64,000 nucleotides of DNA from Trypanosoma brucei (Eukaryota): the NCBI GenBank assembly GCA_000002445.1, contig CM000208.1, positions 2,688,001 through 2,752,000 of the forward strand, in the 5' to 3' direction. How positions within the stretch are numbered: the first letter of the stretch is position 1; every line of letters starts with the position of its first letter. The translations under genes were made by a program, and so were the position numbers. Under the pieces are notes generated by a model that worked only from the letters and a program-made list of their open reading frames with translations, searched no databases and was not told where the DNA came from. Positions 8,252-29,546 of the stretch are shown in pieces.

Positions 8252-11200
8252 ATGATGCGTCGTATGACTGCAACTGCCGTGGTTCCGCTCATACCGAGAG
8301 CGCAGAGTCGTGCCACAAGCTGTTTCACTGGGAATGGCGATAATCGGAACGGCAATAAGGCCGGAAGAAATGACGTTTCCAAGGGGCCGTACGGGGGACG
8401 ACCGTATGATGATATCGTGTCCAGTGTTGATGTGGATGGGGAGCGGCTCCGAGGGTCAGTGAGTTGCACCTTGAAGAAGGCGCAAACTGGGCCGTCCAGG
8501 TCGAAGTATGTACTCTCAGATGCGCGAGGAGGGGTGCTACGCGAGTGTGGGACAAAAACTGAGGCTAGTAATGAACTGGGCCGCGAAAACCTAAGGGAAG
8601 AAAATAAGAAGGAGGAGCGGATGCTTTCGAAAATAAAGAAAAAGTGCGACGTCATCAGTCAGCCTAAGCGGAAAACCTTTATCCTTACGAGCAATTTTTC
8701 TAACCGATATGCCATAGAAAACGATAACAAGAACCATTCTGATAACGATGAAGATGTTACTCGCATTTACAGCTATAACGAGGTGGAGCAGGCGGGTAAC
8801 AAGTGCCGTCCGAGGCAGGGGGATGCGACATTCTCCAAATCATCTCCTTCACCCACTGTGGGTGTAAACTCTGTCGTCAAGCGCGAGATGATGAGGGAAA
8901 GAAGAGGGAAGGAAAAACATTGTGGCGATTCGGCAGTGCTCTCCGATGCTGGCGCGGTTGCGGACCGGGGTCCCGGATGGGGGAATGCAACATCATCTGA
9001 GAACGACAAGATCACCGAGATGCAAAGGTACGAAGGATATGTTGGCAAGAGAAGCTCTGGTAGCATTGTAAAAGACGCTGATGAATCGCACTTAAAAGAC
9101 AACGGCTACGAAGAAGACGATGATGAATTTGCGGCCAGCTCTGCAGTTTCTGTCGACAAGTTCAGAAGGGTAAAGAACCACCCCTTTTTCGATGACTTGC
9201 TGCGCCGCATCGAAAAAAATGCTGCACGGCAGCGGCAACAGATTAGGGCAGCGGGTCATTACAACTTAGATGCCGTTAATCTGTGCGTACGACCTCTATT
9301 ACAGCTCACTGACTATCCGTTCACCCTCGCAGAGTTGCATCAAATGGCCCCGTTCATATATCCCAATCTTCTCAAGGGCTCTCTGTCGGATTTAAAGGCG
9401 TGTCGCCGCCTTCACCTGTTTCACTCAGCCGATACCGACGTTATCCTAGATTGGTCCGTGGAGGATTTTCTCCGCCGACGATATGAAAGTATTCACCTTT
9501 CGTGGGAACCTGTAAAGATAGTCATGATGAGATTTGGGTGGGACCATGAGATCATGTCAGACCGTGATTGTCTTCTTTATCTTTCCAAGTTTATGGAATA
9601 CATCGAGCTTGCACAGCTAGAGCTAAGCGCAGGAGACGAAAAGCCTAGCGCCGTCGCTATCGAGGATCCTGTGCGGACGGCGGAGCAGCGCCCCATCCCC
9701 GTGTCACGACTTTTGGTGCGACGTAAACCGTCCGAAGAAACGGAGCCATCCGTAACTGAAGCGATTAGGCTTATGGGTACCCCCGCGCTTTGGAGCCCTT
9801 CAAGATCAAAGAAGGCGAGGACAGTCGACAAAGAAAGCGTTGAGGGCGTATTTGAGTGTATCCAACGAGAGGCTGCAGACGTTGACGGAGACGAGGGGTC
9901 ACGACTACGCCACGGTGTGGAGGTGGTTGCACCCTTGCAACAGGCAAGGAACCCGTCGGGGCGCAGCATCAGGGATTTCTCACTTGGCAAAAGAAGAGCC
10001 ACAATGATTAATGATGATGTCCCGAAAAGTTTTGGTATCGCGGGAGGGAAGCCATTTGATGGCGACAACCACATCTACACTCCGGAATCGTACGAGGCAC
10101 TCAGCAATGCTTATCACAAAAAAAAAGTGGAGGCATCTTTGCTGCGTCGTCGCCTCCTTGCAACGAGCAGCATTGACTGCGCTAGTGAGTTGCAGGAGAA
10201 ATTGTTTCAAGTGCAAAAAGATCTCTCTCGCCTGAAGGACCGCCTGGAAAAGATGCGGCAGTTGCGCCGAATGGAAGGGGGAGATGTTGAGCGTCACGCT
10301 TCTGTGGAGATTGAGGGTGATGATCATGGTGCAAACGCTCGCTGGATGGAAAGAAAGAACTGTCCGATCCCAAAGGTTGCAGCAGCCGGAGTGGGGGTGG
10401 GGGATGAAATCAGTGCCGGTGATGAACCTGTTTCGGTTTTTACCGGTGAGTTCGAAGCAAATCAACTAAACACAAGCCAGCAGAGGGGAAAAAACTGTAA
10501 TGTCGCTGGAGATAACTTCGAGGAAGAGGGTTTCACAACGCTACCGGTGTGTGTGGCTGAAAAGGGTACCAAACGTGTGGTGCAAGCCAGATTGTCGGAT
10601 GGGCGTGAAATCCAATCGTTATCTTCAGCGGCGATCCAACTGAAGCGAGAAATAGAATTAGCCCGTGAAAAGCACCGGCGGGAGGAGGAGAGTCTCATGA
10701 AAAAAATGGATGAGGCTTTGTCGACACTAGTCAAAATAGAGATGACCATGAAAAACCTTGCTGAGCGTGAAAAGGAGGAAGCATTGATGGAGGAGGAGCG
10801 ATGCCGACTGGAAAAAGAGCGAAAGGATGAAGCAATCAAAAGGATGAGACGAGAAGAAGCTGAAGCGCGTGCTCGAGCCATGGAGCACGAACTTCTTCGT
10901 AAGCACGAAGAACGCTTGAAACTCCTAAACATGCGGCGCGAGAAGGCACAGCAAGCGCAGCGTGATGCAGAACTCGAACTGGAGCGTCAAAAAAAGGAAG
11001 AACAGGAGGCCTTGGAGGCTGAGGCCGAACTTCAGCGGAAACTGGATGAGGCTAAATCCATGATATGGAGTGACAAAGCAGCGGGCGAGATGCCCGTTAA
11101 GGACCAAGTCGTACATGCTGTTGAGAGGGAGTGTACCCCCGTTTTCTCCGGCGACGCAGACGGTGAGGGCTGCTGTCGTGTTGCATCAGAGGAGATGAAA

Positions 11201-23920: not shown

Positions 23921-26101
23921 ATGCGAGGCCGATTCTTGTCATCGACTTTTCGGCTGGGATTATATCGAACGAAGCAGCATGTGCGTGCCGGTTCGAAGGG
24001 TCAAGAAGATCAGTTCTCCTCTCGCGCATCACATATCATAAGCAGACGCGTTCGTGCTGTGGACTGGCTTTATATGGATCCTGTTGAAAAGTGGACAATA
24101 CTCGTCGACCTTGGAAGGAGGGCTCCGATGTTGCTTGAGGACGCCCTCTCTGGAGCCCCTCCAGGAGGGGAGCAAGGTGTCAAGGCAGAGATGAATCTAT
24201 TAGGAAGGTTGCTGTGTTATTGCCCTTGTGTTTCCAGGAATGGAAAGCGTGCGGCTGCAGCTGTGAGTGAGGAGCACCTTTGTGGTGTGTCTTCGCAGAA
24301 GCACAGAGGTTTGATTGATGGGCTACCTTACTGCGTCCGCCTGCAACTGTGTTTGTCGTTTCTTATGTGGGTACGATCACTCCGAGACGTACAGAACACA
24401 CTTGCACACCTACGAATGCCATTTGCCACCACGCGTCGCTTTAAACGTGGAGTTGTTGCCGATGTTTTCCCAACTTGTCTATCGGAGATGTGCGTTGATC
24501 CCTTTACTACTGTAAGTCTGATGATGGACGAGTCCCTCAACAGCACCGCCGAGCAGGTGCCCGCCCCTCATGCGTGGCGTCCTGACGGTTACTACGAGGA
24601 CGAGGAGGAACGGAGAGCTTGGAGCTTCGCATCGAGATTAGGAAAGAGGAGGTCCTCCTGTATTCCTAGCGGTGGTGGTACGGCCGACAGTGGTGTTGCT
24701 AGTGGTCAGTCACGTCGCCGGCGTTCGTGTGTGGGTCTCACCGGTCGGGATATGGTAATGCTTCGCGAAATACAGGGAATGCGTCCAGTTCCCAGTGATG
24801 ATGATGTGCTGGCAGGCCGATCGGGTCTACATGTTGGCCGGCTGCGGTTGCAGGCCCCTCCTACAAACCTGGGACAGTCGTACACAAATGGCCTGTCGGC
24901 TTCATCATATGCGCTAAGCGACGCTCAGCGAGGTGCACTCCCTTCCCCGCTTGCGGTTGACAATGAGGAGGATGAAGTTTACCATCATAACATTCATCGT
25001 GGTGAGGGATGTCCACTAGACGAAAGTGGTCAGTTGGAGTGCACGCCTATTCACATACCCGTTTCGCTTGCTGCGGACAGAGTCGTCATCACGCGTCACT
25101 GTGCTATGGCACACGCTGCTATATTGACATCACTTTTTGTCGAGGGACGAACCGTACAGTTTACCACAAACCATCCACTACTGCTAGATTACGTGTCTTT
25201 CCTTTTTGCTGAGCTTGTTGAGGCTGGGTGGGTAAGTGCGGCGATATGTGAGGAAAGCCTGCGTCCATATGTGCCTTTGTGGGCGGTAGCGGAGAGCGTG
25301 CTGGTATTGGTCCCACCGAAGGATACCGAGGTATGTCGTACCCATGACGTCCGGGGCACGGCGGACATGATCGTTCAGTGCGCCCCATGCTCCGTTCTTA
25401 CCGAGGATGTAGGACAAATCTCTGGGAGCCGCTTTTACCGAGATTTGAGAGAAGAGGTACAGAGGCTACAAGCCACTTTAATTTCTCGAGGAAATGATGC
25501 GAGTTGGCGGGTGTCGTGGGTTCCGGTTTCGAAATCAACATCACTTTATGCAACTCCTCAGAAAGTCGATTGCGGTGATGCGGGGGAGTTCCAGACTTCA
25601 GTGAACGAGGTACTCCGCCACTGTCACACAGTCACGTTTCTTTACACACCGCGCAACTGTAGGTTTACCCCTCGTGAGATGGAGGGCTGGTGGTGGAACG
25701 GCCTCCCCAGAAGCGTGCTTGTGGTGGGTGTGAACAGTCACCCCTTGGACATTGTTTACTTCTTTCCACAGGCACCATTTTTACATAAGAAGGTTGGTAA
25801 CGCGTTCCGGTACCGTGCCGTACGGCGTGTGCTTTTAAGAAAGAACGTACACGGCGGGAGGGAGGGCATTGTGCGCAACTGGCTATACCGCAGTCTTTGG
25901 TGTCGTGGGTTGGCACGCACGGGCCTTCAGGGACAATTGGCCGTGAAGGACAAGATGCGTGTATTGCCCGGCGGGGATGTTACCAAAGGTGGTGAGCATG
26001 CTGTAGACGCTCTGAAGTGGGAGCGTACGGTTGATTACCTAGCCAACCCTGGAAAGATGACGTGGATGGCTCTCGTGGCTGCGAAGCTGCTTCATATTTA
26101 A
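23921..26101 (+). CDS. hypothetical protein (726 aa)
   Basis: Long ATG-initiated ORF; no family recognised. Confidence 0.55.
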   Translation: MRGRFLSSTFRLGLYRTKQHVRAGSKGQEDQFSSRASHIISRRVRAVDWLYMDPVEKWTILVDLGRRAPMLLEDALSGAPPGGEQGVKAEMNLLGRLLCYCPCVSRNGKRAAAAVSEEHLCGVSSQKHRGLIDGLPYCVRLQLCLSFLMWVRSLRDVQNTLAHLRMPFATTRRFKRGVVADVFPTCLSEMCVDPFTTVSLMMDESLNSTAEQVPAPHAWRPDGYYEDEEERRAWSFASRLGKRRSSCIPSGGGTADSGVASGQSRRRRSCVGLTGRDMVMLREIQGMRPVPSDDDVLAGRSGLHVGRLRLQAPPTNLGQSYTNGLSASSYALSDAQRGALPSPLAVDNEEDEVYHHNIHRGEGCPLDESGQLECTPIHIPVSLAADRVVITRHCAMAHAAILTSLFVEGRTVQFTTNHPLLLDYVSFLFAELVEAGWVSAAICEESLRPYVPLWAVAESVLVLVPPKDTEVCRTHDVRGTADMIVQCAPCSVLTEDVGQISGSRFYRDLREEVQRLQATLISRGNDASWRVSWVPVSKSTSLYATPQKVDCGDAGEFQTSVNEVLRHCHTVTFLYTPRNCRFTPREMEGWWWNGLPRSVLVVGVNSHPLDIVYFFPQAPFLHKKVGNAFRYRAVRRVLLRKNVHGGREGIVRNWLYRSLWCRGLARTGLQGQLAVKDKMRVLPGGDVTKGGEHAVDALKWERTVDYLANPGKMTWMALVAAKLLHI

Positions 26102-27192
26102 CGCTACATGTGCTTTGCCAAAGGAAGGGAGGGAGTAACTGCTCTCAGACCTCCATTTTCCCCTTGTTCTTTTTTTTTCCGTGTGTACGTTATCTGTGGT
26201 CCTTGGAGTCTAGTACTATTCCATATTGTGTCTGTGTAAGTGTGTAGTGGGGTATCGTACACGTTATATTCTATATATCGCCCTTCATAACATTTTTAGG
26301 CACTTATTGTATATATTGCATTGTGTTTGTACGGTGCCGCTTTCTGCATTTCACTTACTGGCAGTTACACTGGCCAGCTTTGCGCTGAAGGCACCCCGAC
26401 TCACCAGACATTCAATCCACAAGTCTCCGTCGGGCCTGCCAATTCTGCGGTACCTTCTGAACCTCTGCTGTGTTAACTTAAGCGTGGTGGCGGTCAAATC
26501 TACTTATCCCTTTACATCGGTTGGGCAAACATCGCGTTCACAGAAAGAATGAAAGTTTCTACTGGTAAGTGTGGTGTCATCAGCAGGGCCCTGCTCAGTG
26601 GAAGCGGTGTAAGGTCCCCACCGAAAGGAAGCTCGTAGATGTGCATGGAGACCCCTGGCGGCACCGAGAAAAAAAATGTACTTTCTATGCCGAGCGCGTG
26701 CTTTGCAGAGCGTCCGTTTTTTAAAGATTTGAACACGGCAGGCACCGCTTCAACTCTATCAAGTTAACGTGGAGTAGGTATTCTTTCGGCAACCGTACGC
26801 TTCAGCGTGTCCCCTTTAAGAACAGACTGCATATACGGCGTTGTCGGTTGGGCCAGTGGCAAATTTTATCCCTGCAGCCCTATCTCGCAACTCCTAGAAC
26901 CCCTATTTGTTACATTGCATTAAATATGTAGCCTTAACATGACGAGTGAGGAGCGCTATATCTTCTTCACCAAGTGCAGAATTAACCGTCTGAGTACTTT
27001 ATCACTTTGAAGTGAAGCGCAACCTGATTTACCGGTTACATGCTGTTTCCTCCCTTTGTTTCCACTTAAGCCTCCTCTCTCGTATACCCGGAAGTTTGTT
27101 ACGTAGCCGTTGCTCAGGGAGTTCTGTACGCCGCTGAGTGGTATTGCTCGCTTAGTGGAGCGATTTACTCCCCAGATTTGTTATGTGAGGAG

Positions 27193-27270
27193 TGATCGCT
27201 GATGAAGTTGATATGGTCCGTGTTTCAGATCGCTGAATTGACGCACAATAGCATATCTTCTGAGTTCTGC
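27193..27270 (+). ncRNA. candidate C/D box snoRNA (U18-like), copy 1
   Basis: C box UGAUGA 27200-27205, D' CUGA, D box CUGA 27260-27263. Guide GGUCCGUGUUUCA (27215-27227) is a perfect 13-nt antisense to the conserved LSU rRNA block UGAAACACGGACC. Confidence 0.5.
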
Positions 27271-27409
27271 ACTGCCCCCCTGTACTATCGCTGTTTTGAA
27301 TGCTGTTGTCAGGTGTTGTTAGTTGGGCCAGTGGCAATTTTTATTCATTCGGCCCTCTCCCACAACTCCTAGAACCCCTATTTGTTACATTGCATTAAAT
27401 ATGTAGCCT

Positions 27410-27475
27410 TAATATGACGAGTGAGGAGCGCTATATCTTCTCCACCAAGTGCAGAATTAACCGTCTGAGTACTTT
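27410..27475 (+). ncRNA. second, weaker C/D-like module, copy 2 (also at -475 and +475)
   Basis: Degenerate C box AUGACGA (27414-27420) and CUGA (27465-27468) about 50 nt apart. Shares GUGAGGAG..AUAUCUUCU..CUGAGU with the U18-like module. Confidence 0.25.
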
Positions 27476-27589
27476 ATCACTTTGAAGTGAAGCGCAACCT
27501 GATTTACCGGTTACATGCTGTTTCCTCCCTTTGTTTCCACTTAAGCCTCCTCTCTCGTATACCCGGAAGTTTGTTACGTAGCCGTTGCT

Positions 27590-27654
27590 CAGGGAGTTCT
27601 GTACGCCGCTGAGTGGTATTGCTCGCTTAGTGGAGCGATTTACTCCCCAGATTT
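27590..27654 (+). ncRNA. candidate H/ACA-like (AGA-box) snoRNA, copy 2 (also at -475 and +475)
   Basis: Single hairpin closed by a 6-bp stem GGGAGU(27592-27597)/ACUCCC(27642-27647) with inner stem UCGC/GCGA, followed by c-AGA-uuu (AGA 27649-27651). Trypanosomatid H/ACA-like RNAs are single hairpins with an AGA box. Confidence 0.35.
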
Positions 27655-27667
27655 GTTATGTGAGGAG

Positions 27668-27745
27668 TGATCGCTGATGAAGTTGATATGGTCCGTGTTT
27701 CAGATCGCTGAATTGACGCACAATAGCATATCTTCTGAGTTCTGC
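27668..27745 (+). ncRNA. candidate C/D box snoRNA (U18-like), copy 2
   Basis: C box 27675-27680, guide 27690-27702, D box 27735-27738. About 70 nt from C box to D box, typical of trypanosomatid C/D snoRNAs. Confidence 0.5.
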
Positions 27746-28142
27746 ACTGCCCCCCTGTACTATCGCTGTTTTGAATGCTGTTGTCAGGTGTTGTTAGTTG
27801 GGCCAGTGGCAATTTTTATTCATTCGGCCCTCTCCCACAACTCCTAGAACCCCTATTTGTTACATTGCATTAAATATGTAGCCTTAACATGACGAGTGAG
27901 GAGCGCTATATCTTCTCCACCAAGTGCAGAATTAACCGTCTGAGTACTTTATCACTTTGAAGTGAAGCGCAACCTGATTTACCGGTTACATGCTGTTTCC
28001 TCCCTTTGTTTCCACTTAAGCCTCCTCTCTCGTATACCCGGAAGTTTGTTACGTAGCCGTTGCTCAGGGAGTTCTGTACGCCGCTGAGTGGTATTGCTCG
28101 CTTAGTGGAGCGATTTACTCCCCAGATTTGTTATGTGAGGAG

Positions 28143-28220
28143 TGATCGCTGATGAAGTTGATATGGTCCGTGTTTCAGATCGCTGAATTGACGCACAATA
28201 GCATATCTTCTGAGTTCTGC
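28143..28220 (+). ncRNA. candidate C/D box snoRNA (U18-like), copy 3
   Basis: C box 28150-28155, guide 28165-28177, D box 28210-28213. Confidence 0.5.
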
Positions 28221-28544
28221 ACTGCCCCCCTGTACTATCGCTGTTTTGAATGCTGTTGTCAGGTGTTGTCGGTTGGGCCAGTGGCAACTTTTATCCCTGC
28301 AGCCCTATCTCGCAACCCCTAGAGCCTGTAGTCGTTAGGGTTGTTGTGACGGTGTTTTAACTTTGTGGATGTGTGATTCTTCATGTGGTGGCGGTCGTAG
28401 TTGACTTTTTGGTCTTGCCTTGAGCTATTGATATCGAGCGCCCTGTTATAGTCTTTGACCGGCACAGTTTACTTAAATTTCTTTTGTTTAATATGAATGC
28501 TAAGTAGGGAATAGCGAGTCTGCGCCCTTTGGCCCTTCTCGGAC

Positions 28545-29546
28545 ATGTCATTGTTTGATGATGATGATGATGTGGGGTCTTCAGTTTCGTCCACTGAGGG
28601 CGATCTTAACGAGAGTGTTGTACCCATGAGCACAGTAAGGACGGGCGGGGTTTGTGTGAAGACTGAAGCTAAGACTAATGGACCTCGCACAGGACTTGAG
28701 GATGTGCACCGGTTTACGCTTAGCGTTGAGGAAACGCAGCGGGCAGAGGAGCGGAGGCGTGTAGAGGCGAGTAAAAGACTTTTACTATCAACTGACGGTG
28801 GCTTAATTCCGAATTCGTGCGGCGGTCCTTCATCTCAGGAGCGGAGTCGGTTCGGGTCCTCTATAGCGGAGGCTCTCCGTCTTCGTAGTGAAACACGGGA
28901 GAGGGTGCTACTACAACGCATTCTGAGGCAGCGGCGAGAAGAGGAGGGCAATGAAGAGTTGGCGGAGAAGGATATGGAGGTTGGTGTATTTATCACTCCG
29001 CAGTACCTTAGTGCTCTCAAGCGTCAGAGAAGTACGCGAGCGACATCCCCCGGAGGTCTTGCAAAGCAAACAGAAAACACGGAGGATATGGACCCACTGG
29101 AGTTGTATGTGCAAGAGTTGGAGGAAAGACGTCGGGTGGTGGGAAAAAAAGATCATGACTCGTCTGATGTTGGCACCAACAGGAACGATGGGGGTAGGGA
29201 CCAAGATATGGGGCTGAGAGTGCACTCGGCACAGGTTGTTTCAGGAAATAAGCAACCGGAACATGTGGAACGAAGTGGTGTGACGGGCATTCCTTGCGGC
29301 CACGATGTTGTCTATTCTGTGAAAGCAAGTAGTGGCGCGTGGGTCCCCACTGGTACTAACGGCGCTGTAATTGATGTTTCCGGCGCGGCCGCACCAGCAT
29401 CTCCGAGTCCGACGGCGAACTCCGCGACCCCCCAGGAGGCGCTGCAGGAGGTTAGATGGAGACGGCAAAAGCCGCGTGCGGACCGTTCGTTTATAGAGTC
29501 CGCAGCCACACGGTTTAATAGACGATCTATGGACCGTTTTGTGTAA
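28545..29546 (+). CDS. hypothetical protein (333 aa), acidic N-terminus
   Basis: ORF on the coding strand beginning MSLFDDDDD. By my hand count the ATG may sit 1 nt off the track coordinate; track coordinates used. Confidence 0.5.
   Translation: MSLFDDDDDVGSSVSSTEGDLNESVVPMSTVRTGGVCVKTEAKTNGPRTGLEDVHRFTLSVEETQRAEERRRVEASKRLLLSTDGGLIPNSCGGPSSQERSRFGSSIAEALRLRSETRERVLLQRILRQRREEEGNEELAEKDMEVGVFITPQYLSALKRQRSTRATSPGGLAKQTENTEDMDPLELYVQELEERRRVVGKKDHDSSDVGTNRNDGGRDQDMGLRVHSAQVVSGNKQPEHVERSGVTGIPCGHDVVYSVKASSGAWVPTGTNGAVIDVSGAAAPASPSPTANSATPQEALQEVRWRRQKPRADRSFIESAATRFNRRSMDRFV

What the first reader, a model, noticed from the sequence alone, without database searches (positions are those of the whole stretch)
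26841..28322. 475-bp x3.1 near-identical tandem array = probable snoRNA gene cluster with a U18-like C/D snoRNA antisense to conserved LSU rRNA
The array is seen directly: period 475, three full copies differing at 2-3 positions, inside an intergenic spacer of the + strand polycistron. Each unit carries gcUGAUGA, a 13-nt stretch GGUCCGUGUUUCA, a D' box (CAGA/CUGA), then ~23 nt and CUGA, about 70 nt in total. GGUCCGUGUUUCA is the exact reverse complement of UGAAACACGGACC, the universally conserved eukaryotic LSU rRNA block (the LR3 primer site). If the degenerate D' box CAGA is used, the fifth nucleotide upstream pairs with the A of ..AAAC[A]CGG.. . That is the site methylated by U18/snR18 in other eukaryotes. 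In trypanosomatids, snoRNA genes are organised in tandemly repeated mixed C/D plus H/ACA-like clusters processed from polycistronic transcripts, which fits this arrangement. Whether this particular cluster is already catalogued cannot be decided without a search.
Basis: partly seen in the sequence, partly recalled or inferred. Interest (0 to 1): 0.7.

Follow-up and report, generated by a model that had tools for sequence, protein, structure and literature searches.

The report
Known trypanosome snoRNA gene cluster TB10Cs2

Summary
The array is real: 26836-28326, period 475, 3.1 copies. Rfam places two trypanosomatid H/ACA-like snoRNAs in every unit above gathering score, TB10Cs2H1 and TB10Cs2H2. 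This identifies the T. brucei-group cluster TB10Cs2, with unit order H1-C1-H2-C2.

Its guide UGGUCCGUGUUUCA is perfectly complementary to T. brucei LSU-alpha 740-753. The fifth nucleotide upstream of the CAGA D' box pairs with A746. Published work finds A746 2'-O-methylated by RiboMeth-seq, mass spectrometry and cryo-EM, and lists the snoRNA as the counterpart of U18/snR18.

The other C/D gene, C1, fits SSU Um36. H2 fits LSU-alpha Psi1009 and canonical H1 fits LSU-beta Psi490. The same gene order lies at the syntenic locus in T. rangeli, T. theileri and T. melophagium.

Verdict: observation confirmed, interpretation supported, already known.

One side observation may be new. The two internal H1 copies carry four pocket substitutions that switch perfect complementarity from Psi490 to helix-69 Psi518. 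The accessible papers do not mention this. Whether these copies are expressed or active is untested.

The parts
26836..28326 (+). Whole snoRNA array: three full 475-bp units (H1-C1-H2-C2) plus a terminal fourth H1 copy
   Evidence: TRF; Rfam hits; unit comparison
26836..26901 (+). TB10Cs2H1, canonical copy. Single-hairpin H/ACA-like snoRNA with AGA box at 26896-26898. Pocket strands CGGU and AUCUC.
   Evidence: Rfam RF01525, 84 bits against a gathering score of 35. The pocket pairs 9/9 Watson-Crick with LSU-beta GAGAU-Psi490-C-ACCG. The pocket is identical in T. rangeli and T. melophagium.
26934..27032 (+). TB10Cs2C1 (ends approximate). C box AUGACGA 26939-26945; guide GCAGAAUUAACC 26976-26987; CUGA 26990-26993; second guide GAAGCGCAAC with D box CUGA 27024-27027.
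   Evidence: The fifth nucleotide upstream of the CUGA at 26990 pairs with the first U of GGUUGAUUCUGC at the SSU 5' end. This is Um8, called SSU_36, which is assigned to TB10Cs2C1. The downstream part is conserved in three other species. Which CUGA is D' and which is D is my inference. Repeated at 27409-27507 and 27884-27982.
27113..27179 (+). TB10Cs2H2. Single-hairpin H/ACA-like snoRNA with AGA box at 27174-27176.
   Evidence: Rfam RF01863, 103.4 bits, identical to the model consensus. Pocket strand GCGAUUU pairs with LSU-alpha AAAUCGC (1002-1008) and GUAC pairs with 1011-1014, leaving Psi1009 in the pocket; the flanking rRNA bases are read. Repeated at 27588-27654 and 28063-28129.
27194..27267 (+). 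TB10Cs2C2, the U18-like C/D snoRNA. C box 27199-27205; guide UGGUCCGUGUUUCA 27214-27227; D' box CAGA 27226-27229; possible C' box UGACGC 27239-27244; conserved second antisense element 27245-27259; D box 27260-27263.
   Evidence: SNORD18 match of 27.4 bits, below threshold. The guide is perfectly complementary to T. brucei LSU-alpha 740-753, and T27221 (fifth upstream of CAGA) pairs with Am746. The RNA is invariant from the C box through CAGA in four Trypanosoma species. Repeated at 27669-27742 and 28144-28217.
27311..27376 (+). H1 variant B (unit 2). Same hairpin and AGA box, with pocket strands changed to UAGU and CUCCC.
   Evidence: Rfam RF01525 at only 55.9 bits. It differs from canonical H1 at 10 positions. 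Its pocket pairs 9/9 Watson-Crick with LSU-beta GGGAG-Psi518-A-ACUA in helix 69. It folds at -21 kcal/mol, z -2.8.
27786..27851 (+). H1 variant B (unit 3), identical to the unit 2 copy
28261..28326 (+). Terminal TB10Cs2H1, canonical pocket; the array ends here
   Evidence: Rfam RF01525, 78 bits; alignment

Best explanation
The array is the T. brucei-group snoRNA gene cluster TB10Cs2. It consists of three tandem 475-bp units, each encoding TB10Cs2H1, TB10Cs2C1, TB10Cs2H2 and TB10Cs2C2, followed by a terminal extra H1. It lies in the spacer between two protein-coding genes of a + strand polycistron.

From established trypanosomatid biology (PMC3273796), the cluster is transcribed by RNA polymerase II as a polycistronic precursor. 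The individual snoRNAs are cut and trimmed out and assembled into C/D or H/ACA-like snoRNPs.

C2 pairs through its 14-nt guide with LSU-alpha 740-753. It places A746 at the fifth position upstream of a degenerate D' box, CAGA, so the methyltransferase 2'-O-methylates A746. This is the site equivalent to yeast A649 and human A1313, the U18/snR18 site. C1 guides SSU Um36, H2 guides LSU-alpha Psi1009 and canonical H1 guides LSU-beta Psi490.

Shown here: the repeat, the family matches, the complementarities to T. brucei rRNA, and conservation at the syntenic locus. Shown by others: the modifications exist at those sites and the snoRNAs are expressed. Inferred: that each snoRNA is the cause of its modification. 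In the papers I could read, the assignments rest on complementarity.
For: Repeat. Rfam gathering-level matches to TB10Cs2H1 (84, 78 and 55.9 bits against 35) and TB10Cs2H2 (103.4 bits against 50) in every unit. SNORD18 is the best family for the C/D candidate, with guide and D' aligned.

Literature. TB10Cs2C2 is listed beside U18/snR18 (PMC3542256). RiboMeth-seq gives LSUa_746 at 0.92 assigned to TB10Cs2C2 and SSU_36 to TB10Cs2C1 (PMC9283944). MS, cryo-EM, Psi-seq and HydraPsiSeq tables assign Am746 to C2, Um36 to C1, Psi1009 to H2 and Psi490 to H1 (PMC10662448 supplements). H1 and H2 read counts and their attribution to Liang et al. 2005 are in PMC4855143.

T. brucei rRNA read nucleotide by nucleotide gives LSU-alpha 739-766 and LSU-beta 480-531, which match the guides.

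Conservation. The same C1-H2-C2-H1 order lies upstream of the orthologous gene in T. rangeli, T. theileri and T. melophagium. Conservation starts sharply at the C box and stops at the D box of C2. The CAGA is invariant, while the downstream CUGA reads CUGG or UUGG elsewhere.
Against: C2 does not reach Rfam's SNORD18 gathering score (27.4 against 41 bits). The original catalogue paper (Liang et al. 2005) and its sequences could not be read, so the names C1 and C2 are assigned from cluster membership plus target, not from sequence identity to a published record. No knock-out or knock-down specific to this cluster was found in the accessible papers. NOP1 silencing lowered Am746 only slightly, 0.92 to 0.86. 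The window's organism is not given. The flanking protein's best database hit is 97% identical and unnamed, and the next hit is T. congolense at 41%, so the species within the T. brucei group is inferred.
Confidence: 0.95

Rival explanations
1. The repeat is a non-coding satellite or a transposon fragment, and the C/D-like boxes and rRNA complementarity are chance.
For: Only that it is a near-identical tandem repeat in an intergenic spacer.
Against: Seven Rfam hits lie above gathering score. The 13-mer occurs three times against 0.05 expected. Four separate guide-target fits fall on experimentally modified rRNA positions. Gene order and guide sequences are conserved at the syntenic locus of three distant Trypanosoma species, while the spacers are not.
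Confidence: 0.01
2. C2 uses the canonical CUGA at 27233-27236 as its D' box rather than CAGA. The conserved 13-14 nt would then not place A746 at the fifth position, and the snoRNA would not be a U18 equivalent.
For: CUGA is the consensus D' sequence and lies only 3 nt after CAGA.
Against: With that box the fifth upstream nucleotide is G27228, in AGAUCG. It lies beyond the 3' end of the perfect complementarity (27214-27227), opposite U739 of the rRNA UUG, so it would at best direct a U, not A746. This CUGA reads CUGG or UUGG in T. rangeli, T. theileri and T. melophagium, whereas CAGA is invariant in their C2 genes, apart from the upstream T. melophagium copy, which reads CGGA. The SNORD18 model aligns CAGA with U18's D' box. 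The methylated base found by MS is exactly the one predicted from CAGA.
Confidence: 0.03
3. The two internal H1 copies (variant B) are decaying or neutral copies with no function of their own. The alternative is that they are a retargeted guide.
For: They score lower against the TB10Cs2H1 model (55.9 against 78-84 bits). No variant-B type H1 is present in the three other Trypanosoma loci. Psi518 already has an assigned guide, TB9Cs2H1. No expression data specific to the variant were found.
Against: All four pocket substitutions are exactly those that turn 9/9 pairing with site 490 into 9/9 pairing with site 518, in the same register. The lower-stem change G52A improves a U-G pair to U-A, and A41G lengthens the upper stem. 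The hairpin folds better than the canonical one. The AGA box and its spacing are kept. The pattern GGGAGUNACUA occurred only at helix 69 in 517 kb of environmental eukaryotic rDNA. Substitutions are about 39-fold concentrated in H1, while the rest of the unit stays nearly identical.
Confidence: 0.45

Closest known systems
T. brucei snoRNA cluster TB10Cs2 (TB10Cs2H1, C1, H2, C2; catalogued by Liang et al. 2005, RNA 11:619; Rfam RF01525 and RF01863)
   Same: Both H/ACA-like members match above gathering score, and H2 is identical to the model consensus. The two C/D members have guides for exactly the sites published for TB10Cs2C1 (SSU_36) and TB10Cs2C2 (LSU-alpha 746). The cluster is tandemly repeated and mixes C/D and H/ACA genes, as described for trypanosome clusters.
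   Different: Nothing in kind; this is the same locus or its equivalent in a very close relative. The published sequences and copy number could not be compared directly. The accessible papers do not mention that the H1 copies come in two pocket types.
U18 / SNORD18 (vertebrates) and snR18 (yeast), Rfam RF00093
   Same: It is a C/D snoRNA whose D' guide GGUCCGUGUUU pairs with the universally conserved LSU block GAAACACGGACC and places the same A at the fifth position (yeast A649, human A1313, T. brucei LSU-alpha A746).
   Different: It scores below the family's gathering score (27.4 against 41 bits). The D' box is CAGA rather than CUGA. It is encoded in a tandem polycistronic cluster, not in an intron of a host gene (the latter from my own knowledge). 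It has a second conserved antisense element upstream of the D box that has no counterpart in the SNORD18 consensus. Common descent versus convergence on the same target cannot be decided from about 70 nt.
TB9Cs2H1, the H/ACA-like snoRNA assigned to helix-69 Psi518 in T. brucei
   Same: The pocket of H1 variant B is perfectly complementary to the same site, GGGAG-U518-A-ACUA.
   Different: Variant B is a diverged copy of TB10Cs2H1, not of TB9Cs2H1. No Rfam match to a TB9Cs2H1 family appeared in the array at E up to 10.

Membership tests
TB10Cs2 snoRNA cluster of T. brucei | Contains TB10Cs2H1 (RF01525) and TB10Cs2H2 (RF01863) | tested here: met
   Seven hits above gathering score: four H1 (84, 55.9, 55.9 and 78 bits against 35) and three H2 (103.4 bits against 50), all full length
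TB10Cs2 snoRNA cluster of T. brucei | Contains C/D snoRNAs with guides for the published targets of TB10Cs2C1 (SSU Um36) and TB10Cs2C2 (LSU-alpha Am746) | tested here: met
   The guide positions put SSU U8 (called SSU_36) and LSU-alpha A746 at the fifth position.
TB10Cs2 snoRNA cluster of T. brucei | Located on chromosome 10 of T. brucei, with sequence identical to the catalogued genes | not testable with these tools
   No trypanosome genome collection or snoRNA catalogue is searchable, and Liang et al. 2005 is not held. Flanking protein: 97% to an unnamed Logan contig, 41% to T. congolense.
Box C/D snoRNA (methylation guide) | C box RUGAUGA near the 5' end, D box CUGA near the 3' end, and a guide of at least 10 nt ending one nucleotide before a D or D' box, with the target at the fifth position | tested here: met
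   C2 has cUGAUGA, a 14-nt perfect complement including 2 nt of the D' box, CAGA, and CUGA. C1 has AUGACGA (AUGAUGA in the other species), a 12-bp guide with one G-U pair, and CUGA.
SNORD18 / U18 / snR18 | Reaches the Rfam RF00093 gathering score | tested here: not met
   27.4 bits against 41; E = 0.0018 when only 171 nt are searched
SNORD18 / U18 / snR18 | The D' guide targets the A equivalent to yeast 25S A649 and human 28S A1313 | tested here: met
   The guide pairs with LSU-alpha 740-753, and the fifth position is A746 in GAAAC[A]CGG. The equivalence is tabulated in PMC3542256.
SNORD18 / U18 / snR18 | The target is actually 2'-O-methylated in this organism | tested here: met
   From the literature, not from my own experiment: RiboMeth-seq 0.92; MS fragment (m1A)(Am)AC(Am)CG at 93% and 91%; cryo-EM positive
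Trypanosomatid H/ACA-like snoRNA | Single hairpin with an internal pseudouridylation pocket, an AGA box 3 nt from the 3' end, and the pocket about 14-16 nt upstream of the box | tested here: met
   Rfam structure lines and folds. AGA lies at 26896-26898 and 27174-27176. There are 15 nt between the top of the H1 pocket and AGA. The definition is from PMC3273796.
Guide for helix-69 Psi518 (applies to H1 variant B only) | Bipartite pocket complementary to both sides of U518, leaving U518 and the next base unpaired | tested here: met
   CUCCC pairs with GGGAG (513-517) and UAGU pairs with ACUA (520-523), 9/9 Watson-Crick
Guide for helix-69 Psi518 (applies to H1 variant B only) | The variant is expressed, and Psi518 depends on it | not testable with these tools
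   No small-RNA reads or knock-out data for the variant are available. The accessible papers assign Psi518 to TB9Cs2H1 only.

The most novel reading that the evidence does not exclude
The two internal H1 copies (27311-27376 and 27786-27851) may be a neofunctionalised paralogue of TB10Cs2H1. Four pocket substitutions have retargeted it from LSU-beta Psi490 to helix-69 Psi518. If so, T. brucei has a second, so far unassigned guide for Psi518, a developmentally regulated H69 site, that arose by retargeting inside a tandem array.
Probability: 0.3. Interest if true: 0.35.

Novelty: already known. Interest (0 to 1): 0.1.

Why it matters
As given, the finding matters little. It rediscovers from raw sequence a snoRNA cluster catalogued in 2005, whose four guides and four rRNA modification sites have been mapped repeatedly.

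The only part with some residual value is the two-type H1 arrangement. If the variant copies are active, they give a clean natural example of how a few point mutations retarget a pseudouridylation guide. They would also add redundancy at a helix-69 site whose assigned snoRNA could not be knocked out.

Tried and rejected
(1) I tried to read the original catalogues (Liang et al. 2005, PMC1370750; the L. major catalogue PMC1828925; Barth et al. 2008, PMC2224155). None is held, so published snoRNA sequences and copy numbers could not be compared.

(2) I looked up spurious ORFs spanning C2 and H1 variant B in the contig index, hoping to find the array in other T. brucei-group assemblies. Nothing is on record. 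The closest flanking-gene contig is only 1.1 kb, and the T. congolense protein has no contig on record.

(3) I searched for a target of the conserved second antisense element of C2 (ACAAUAGCAUAUCUU before the D box). There is no convincing complement in T. brucei LSU-alpha 739-900; the best duplex is -13.9 kcal/mol, rich in G-U pairs and has a large loop. Nor is there one in 120 environmental eukaryotic LSU contigs, where the best score was 12 of 15. I considered pairing with the SSU 5' region by hand and rejected it, since only 7 bp form.

(4) I tested whether LSU-beta U1229, the second published prediction for TB10Cs2H1, could be the target of variant B. It does not fit the variant pocket, and MS found it unmodified.

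(5) I searched the window for the snoGRUMPY (TB10Cs2'C1) primers in case neighbouring clusters were present. There were no matches.

(6) RNAalifold on H2 from four species gave little covariation signal, partly because the alignment is poor. I do not use it as evidence.
Full report
**Observation.** Tandem Repeats Finder reports one array at 26840-28323, with period 475, 3.1 copies and 97% matches. It is the only large tandem repeat in the 64-kb window. In register with the genes it contains, the array runs from 26836 to 28326.

In unit 1 they are cUGAUGA at 27199-27205, GGTCCGTGTTTCA at 27215-27227, CAGA at 27226-27229, a second CTGA at 27233-27236 and the terminal CTGA at 27260-27263. All recur at +475 and +950. 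The 13-mer occurs three times, against 0.05 expected from shuffles. The array lies between + strand ORFs 23921-26101 and 28545-29546, within a run of + strand ORFs.

One detail needs correcting. Units 2 and 3 differ at 1 position, but unit 1 differs from them at 13-14 positions.

**What it is.** A scan of the whole window against Rfam at gathering thresholds gives seven hits, all inside the array.
- TB10Cs2H1 (RF01525) lies at 26836, 27311, 27786 and 28261.
- TB10Cs2H2 (RF01863) lies at 27113, 27588 and 28063. These copies are identical to the model consensus, at 103.4 bits.

These are the two H/ACA-like members of the T. brucei chromosome-10 cluster TB10Cs2. Rfam has no families for the C/D members of this cluster. 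The score is 27.4 bits, below the gathering score of 41. The alignment places UGGUCCGUGUUUC on U18's guide and the window's CAGA on U18's CUGA D' box.

The downstream gene's product has its best named relatives in Trypanosoma: T. congolense at 41%, then T. rangeli, T. theileri and T. melophagium. One unnamed contig matches at 97%. The window is therefore from the T. brucei group.

**Literature.** PMC3542256 lists TB10Cs2C2 in the same row as yeast U18/snR18 (25S A649), human U18A (28S A1313) and T. brucei 'LSU Am910' in the older numbering. PMC9283944 Table 2 gives RiboMeth-seq scores of 0.92 for LSUa_746 (A) and 0.69 for LSUa_747 (C), both assigned to TB10Cs2C2, and assigns SSU_36 (U) to TB10Cs2C1.

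The supplementary tables of PMC10662448 give the following.
- Am746 is confirmed by MS in the RNase T1 fragment (m1A)(Am)AC(Am)CG, at about 93% and 91%, and is seen in cryo-EM.
- The neighbouring 744, 745 and 747 calls were not confirmed by MS.
- Um at SSU_36 is assigned to C1.
- Psi at LSU-alpha 1009 is assigned to H2.
- Psi at LSU-beta 490 is assigned to H1. A second predicted H1 site, 1229, was found unmodified by MS.

PMC4855143 credits H1 and H2 to Liang et al. 2005 and gives their read counts in two life stages. PMC3273796 states the general rules. Trypanosome snoRNA genes lie in clusters that mix C/D and H/ACA genes and are transcribed polycistronically by Pol II. The H/ACA-like RNAs are single hairpins with an AGA box.

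**Guide-target checks against the organism's own rRNA.** The per-nucleotide tables of PMC10662448 let me read T. brucei LSU-alpha 739-900 and LSU-beta 294-624.
- **C2.** LSU-alpha 740-753 is UGAAACACGGACCA, the perfect complement of the C2 guide UGGUCCGUGUUUCA (27214-27227). With CAGA as D' box, the fifth upstream nucleotide (T27221) pairs with A746.
- **Canonical H1.** LSU-beta 485-495 is GAGAU-Psi490-CACCG. It pairs 9/9 with the two pocket strands AUCUC and CGGU.
- **H2.** The strand GCGAUUU pairs with LSU-alpha 1002-1008 and GUAC pairs with 1011-1014, leaving Psi1009 and C1010 in the pocket. The rRNA bases here are read.
- **C1.** The guide GCAGAAUUAACC (26976-26987) pairs with GGUUGAUUCUGC at the kinetoplastid SSU 5' end. 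That sequence is seen in an environmental kinetoplastid rDNA contig, and the MS fragments GG(Um)U and (Um)UG agree with it. The first U is at the fifth position, which is Um8, called SSU_36.

C1 probably extends to a second CUGA at 27024-27027, preceded by GAAGCGCAAC. This would fit the published second assignment, Cm 'SSU_16', a position outside the mature RNA. Which CUGA box is D' and which is D is my inference.

**Comparative evidence.** I fetched the loci encoding the orthologue of the downstream gene in T. theileri, T. rangeli and T. melophagium. All three carry, immediately upstream of that gene, the same genes in the same order, C1-H2-C2-H1, in two or three tandem units.

In the C2 alignment, identity starts abruptly a few nucleotides before the C box and ends at the D box. 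The stretch from CUGAUGA through UGAUAUGGUCCGUGUUUCAGA is invariant. The second CUGA of T. brucei reads CUGG or UUGG in the others. This rules out the second CUGA as the D' box and supports CAGA. The spacers are not conserved: they are CT-rich in T. brucei and (TG)n in the T. theileri clade.

**Mechanism.** The most likely mechanism is the standard one, stated in the best explanation. The precursor is transcribed polycistronically and the snoRNAs are processed into snoRNPs. C2 and C1 then guide 2'-O-methylation by the fifth-nucleotide rule, and H1 and H2 guide pseudouridylation.

The sequence facts and complementarities are shown here. The modifications and snoRNA expression are shown in the cited papers. 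The causal link between each snoRNA and its site rests on complementarity in the papers I could read.

**Side observation: two types of H1.** The first and last H1 copies (26836 and 28261) have the canonical pocket, which is also identical in T. rangeli and T. melophagium. The two internal copies (27311 and 27786) differ from them at 10 positions within 66 nt, while the other 409 nt of the unit differ at 1-2 positions. This is a 39-fold enrichment, Fisher p = 4e-8.

Four of the changes lie in the pocket: C10U, G11A, A47C and U50C. Each converts a Watson-Crick pair with the Psi490 site into a Watson-Crick pair with LSU-beta 513-523, GGGAG-Psi518-A-ACUA, in the same register. Canonical H1 pairs 9/9 with site 490, but at site 518 only 5 of the 9 pairs are Watson-Crick (2 G-U pairs and 2 mismatches). 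For the variant the numbers are reversed: 9/9 with site 518, and at site 490 only 5 Watson-Crick pairs (1 G-U pair and 3 mismatches).

G52A improves a U-G pair to U-A in the lower stem, and A41G lengthens the upper stem. The variant folds better than the canonical copy, at -21 kcal/mol with z -2.8. The AGA box and its 15-nt spacing are unchanged. The pattern GGGAGUNACUA occurred only at helix 69 in 517 kb of environmental eukaryotic rDNA.

Psi518 is an experimentally confirmed helix-69 site, assigned to TB9Cs2H1. Attempts to knock out that snoRNA failed. None of the accessible papers mentions an H1 variant, but the original catalogue could not be read. Whether the variant is expressed and active is untested. 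I put the chance that it is a functional and previously unassigned Psi518 guide at about 0.3.

**Second loose end.** The element between the putative C' box and the D box of C2 (ACAAUAGCAUAUCUU, 27245-27259) is conserved in all four species, with only three transition differences. The literature lists no target for it, and I found none in the rRNA segments available.

**Verdict.** The feature is already known: it is the TB10Cs2 snoRNA cluster, and TB10Cs2C2 is the U18-equivalent guide for LSU-alpha Am746. Interest is low.

Noticed in passing
window 27311-27376 and 27786-27851 (compare 26836-26901 and 28261-28326): The two internal H1 copies carry 10 substitutions, while the rest of the repeat unit is nearly identical. 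The four substitutions in the pseudouridylation pocket switch perfect 9-bp complementarity from LSU-beta Psi490 to helix-69 Psi518. The hairpin and AGA box are kept.
   Followed up: yes
window 27245-27259 (+475, +950); L001:9748-9762, L002:8846-8860, L003:9779-9793 (approximate): C2 has a second antisense-like element just upstream of its D box. It is conserved in four Trypanosoma species with only transition differences. No target is listed in the literature, and none was found in the available rRNA segments.
   Followed up: partly
window 26994-27032; L001:9255-9295, L002:8562-8602, L003:8908-8948: Directly after the CUGA that follows the Um36 guide of C1 there is a conserved hairpin and a C-box-like motif (AUGACGAG in the other species, AGUGAAG in the window). 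A short species-specific guide and a second CUGA follow. C1 is therefore probably about 95 nt long with two guides, and the second guide varies between species, as expected for a spacer target.
   Followed up: partly
L003:9143-9146: In T. melophagium the upstream C2 copy has CGGA where the downstream copy and all other species have the CAGA D' box. This is a single-base difference in the box that positions the methylation.
   Followed up: no
window 26938 and 26967 (and their equivalents in units 2 and 3): These are the only differences between units outside H1. C/T at 26938 lies 1 nt before the C1 C box, and unit 2 has T. T/C at 26967 lies inside C1, where unit 1 has T and units 2 and 3 and the other species have C.
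   Followed up: no
L001:9330-9345, L003:8988-9004 and 9520-9622 (compare window 27032-27112): The spacer between C1 and H2 is a (TG)n microsatellite of very different length in the two T. melophagium units and in T. theileri. In the window it is a CT-rich tract. The spacers evolve freely while the four genes are held.
   Followed up: no
window 28545-29546: The downstream protein-coding gene has no named T. brucei entry in the protein database. Its best hit is 97% identical, from an unnamed Logan contig (ERR7929159), and the next is T. congolense at 41%. No Pfam domain is recorded for any homologue.
   Followed up: no
L110 (metagenome contig, 11970 bp): This is an environmental contig carrying a complete kinetoplastid-type rDNA unit. 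Its LSU region around the H1 target (GACGAGATTCACCGACGCGCGGGTAA) matches T. brucei LSU-beta 482-507 exactly. I used it only as a stand-in for the SSU 5' end.
   Followed up: partly
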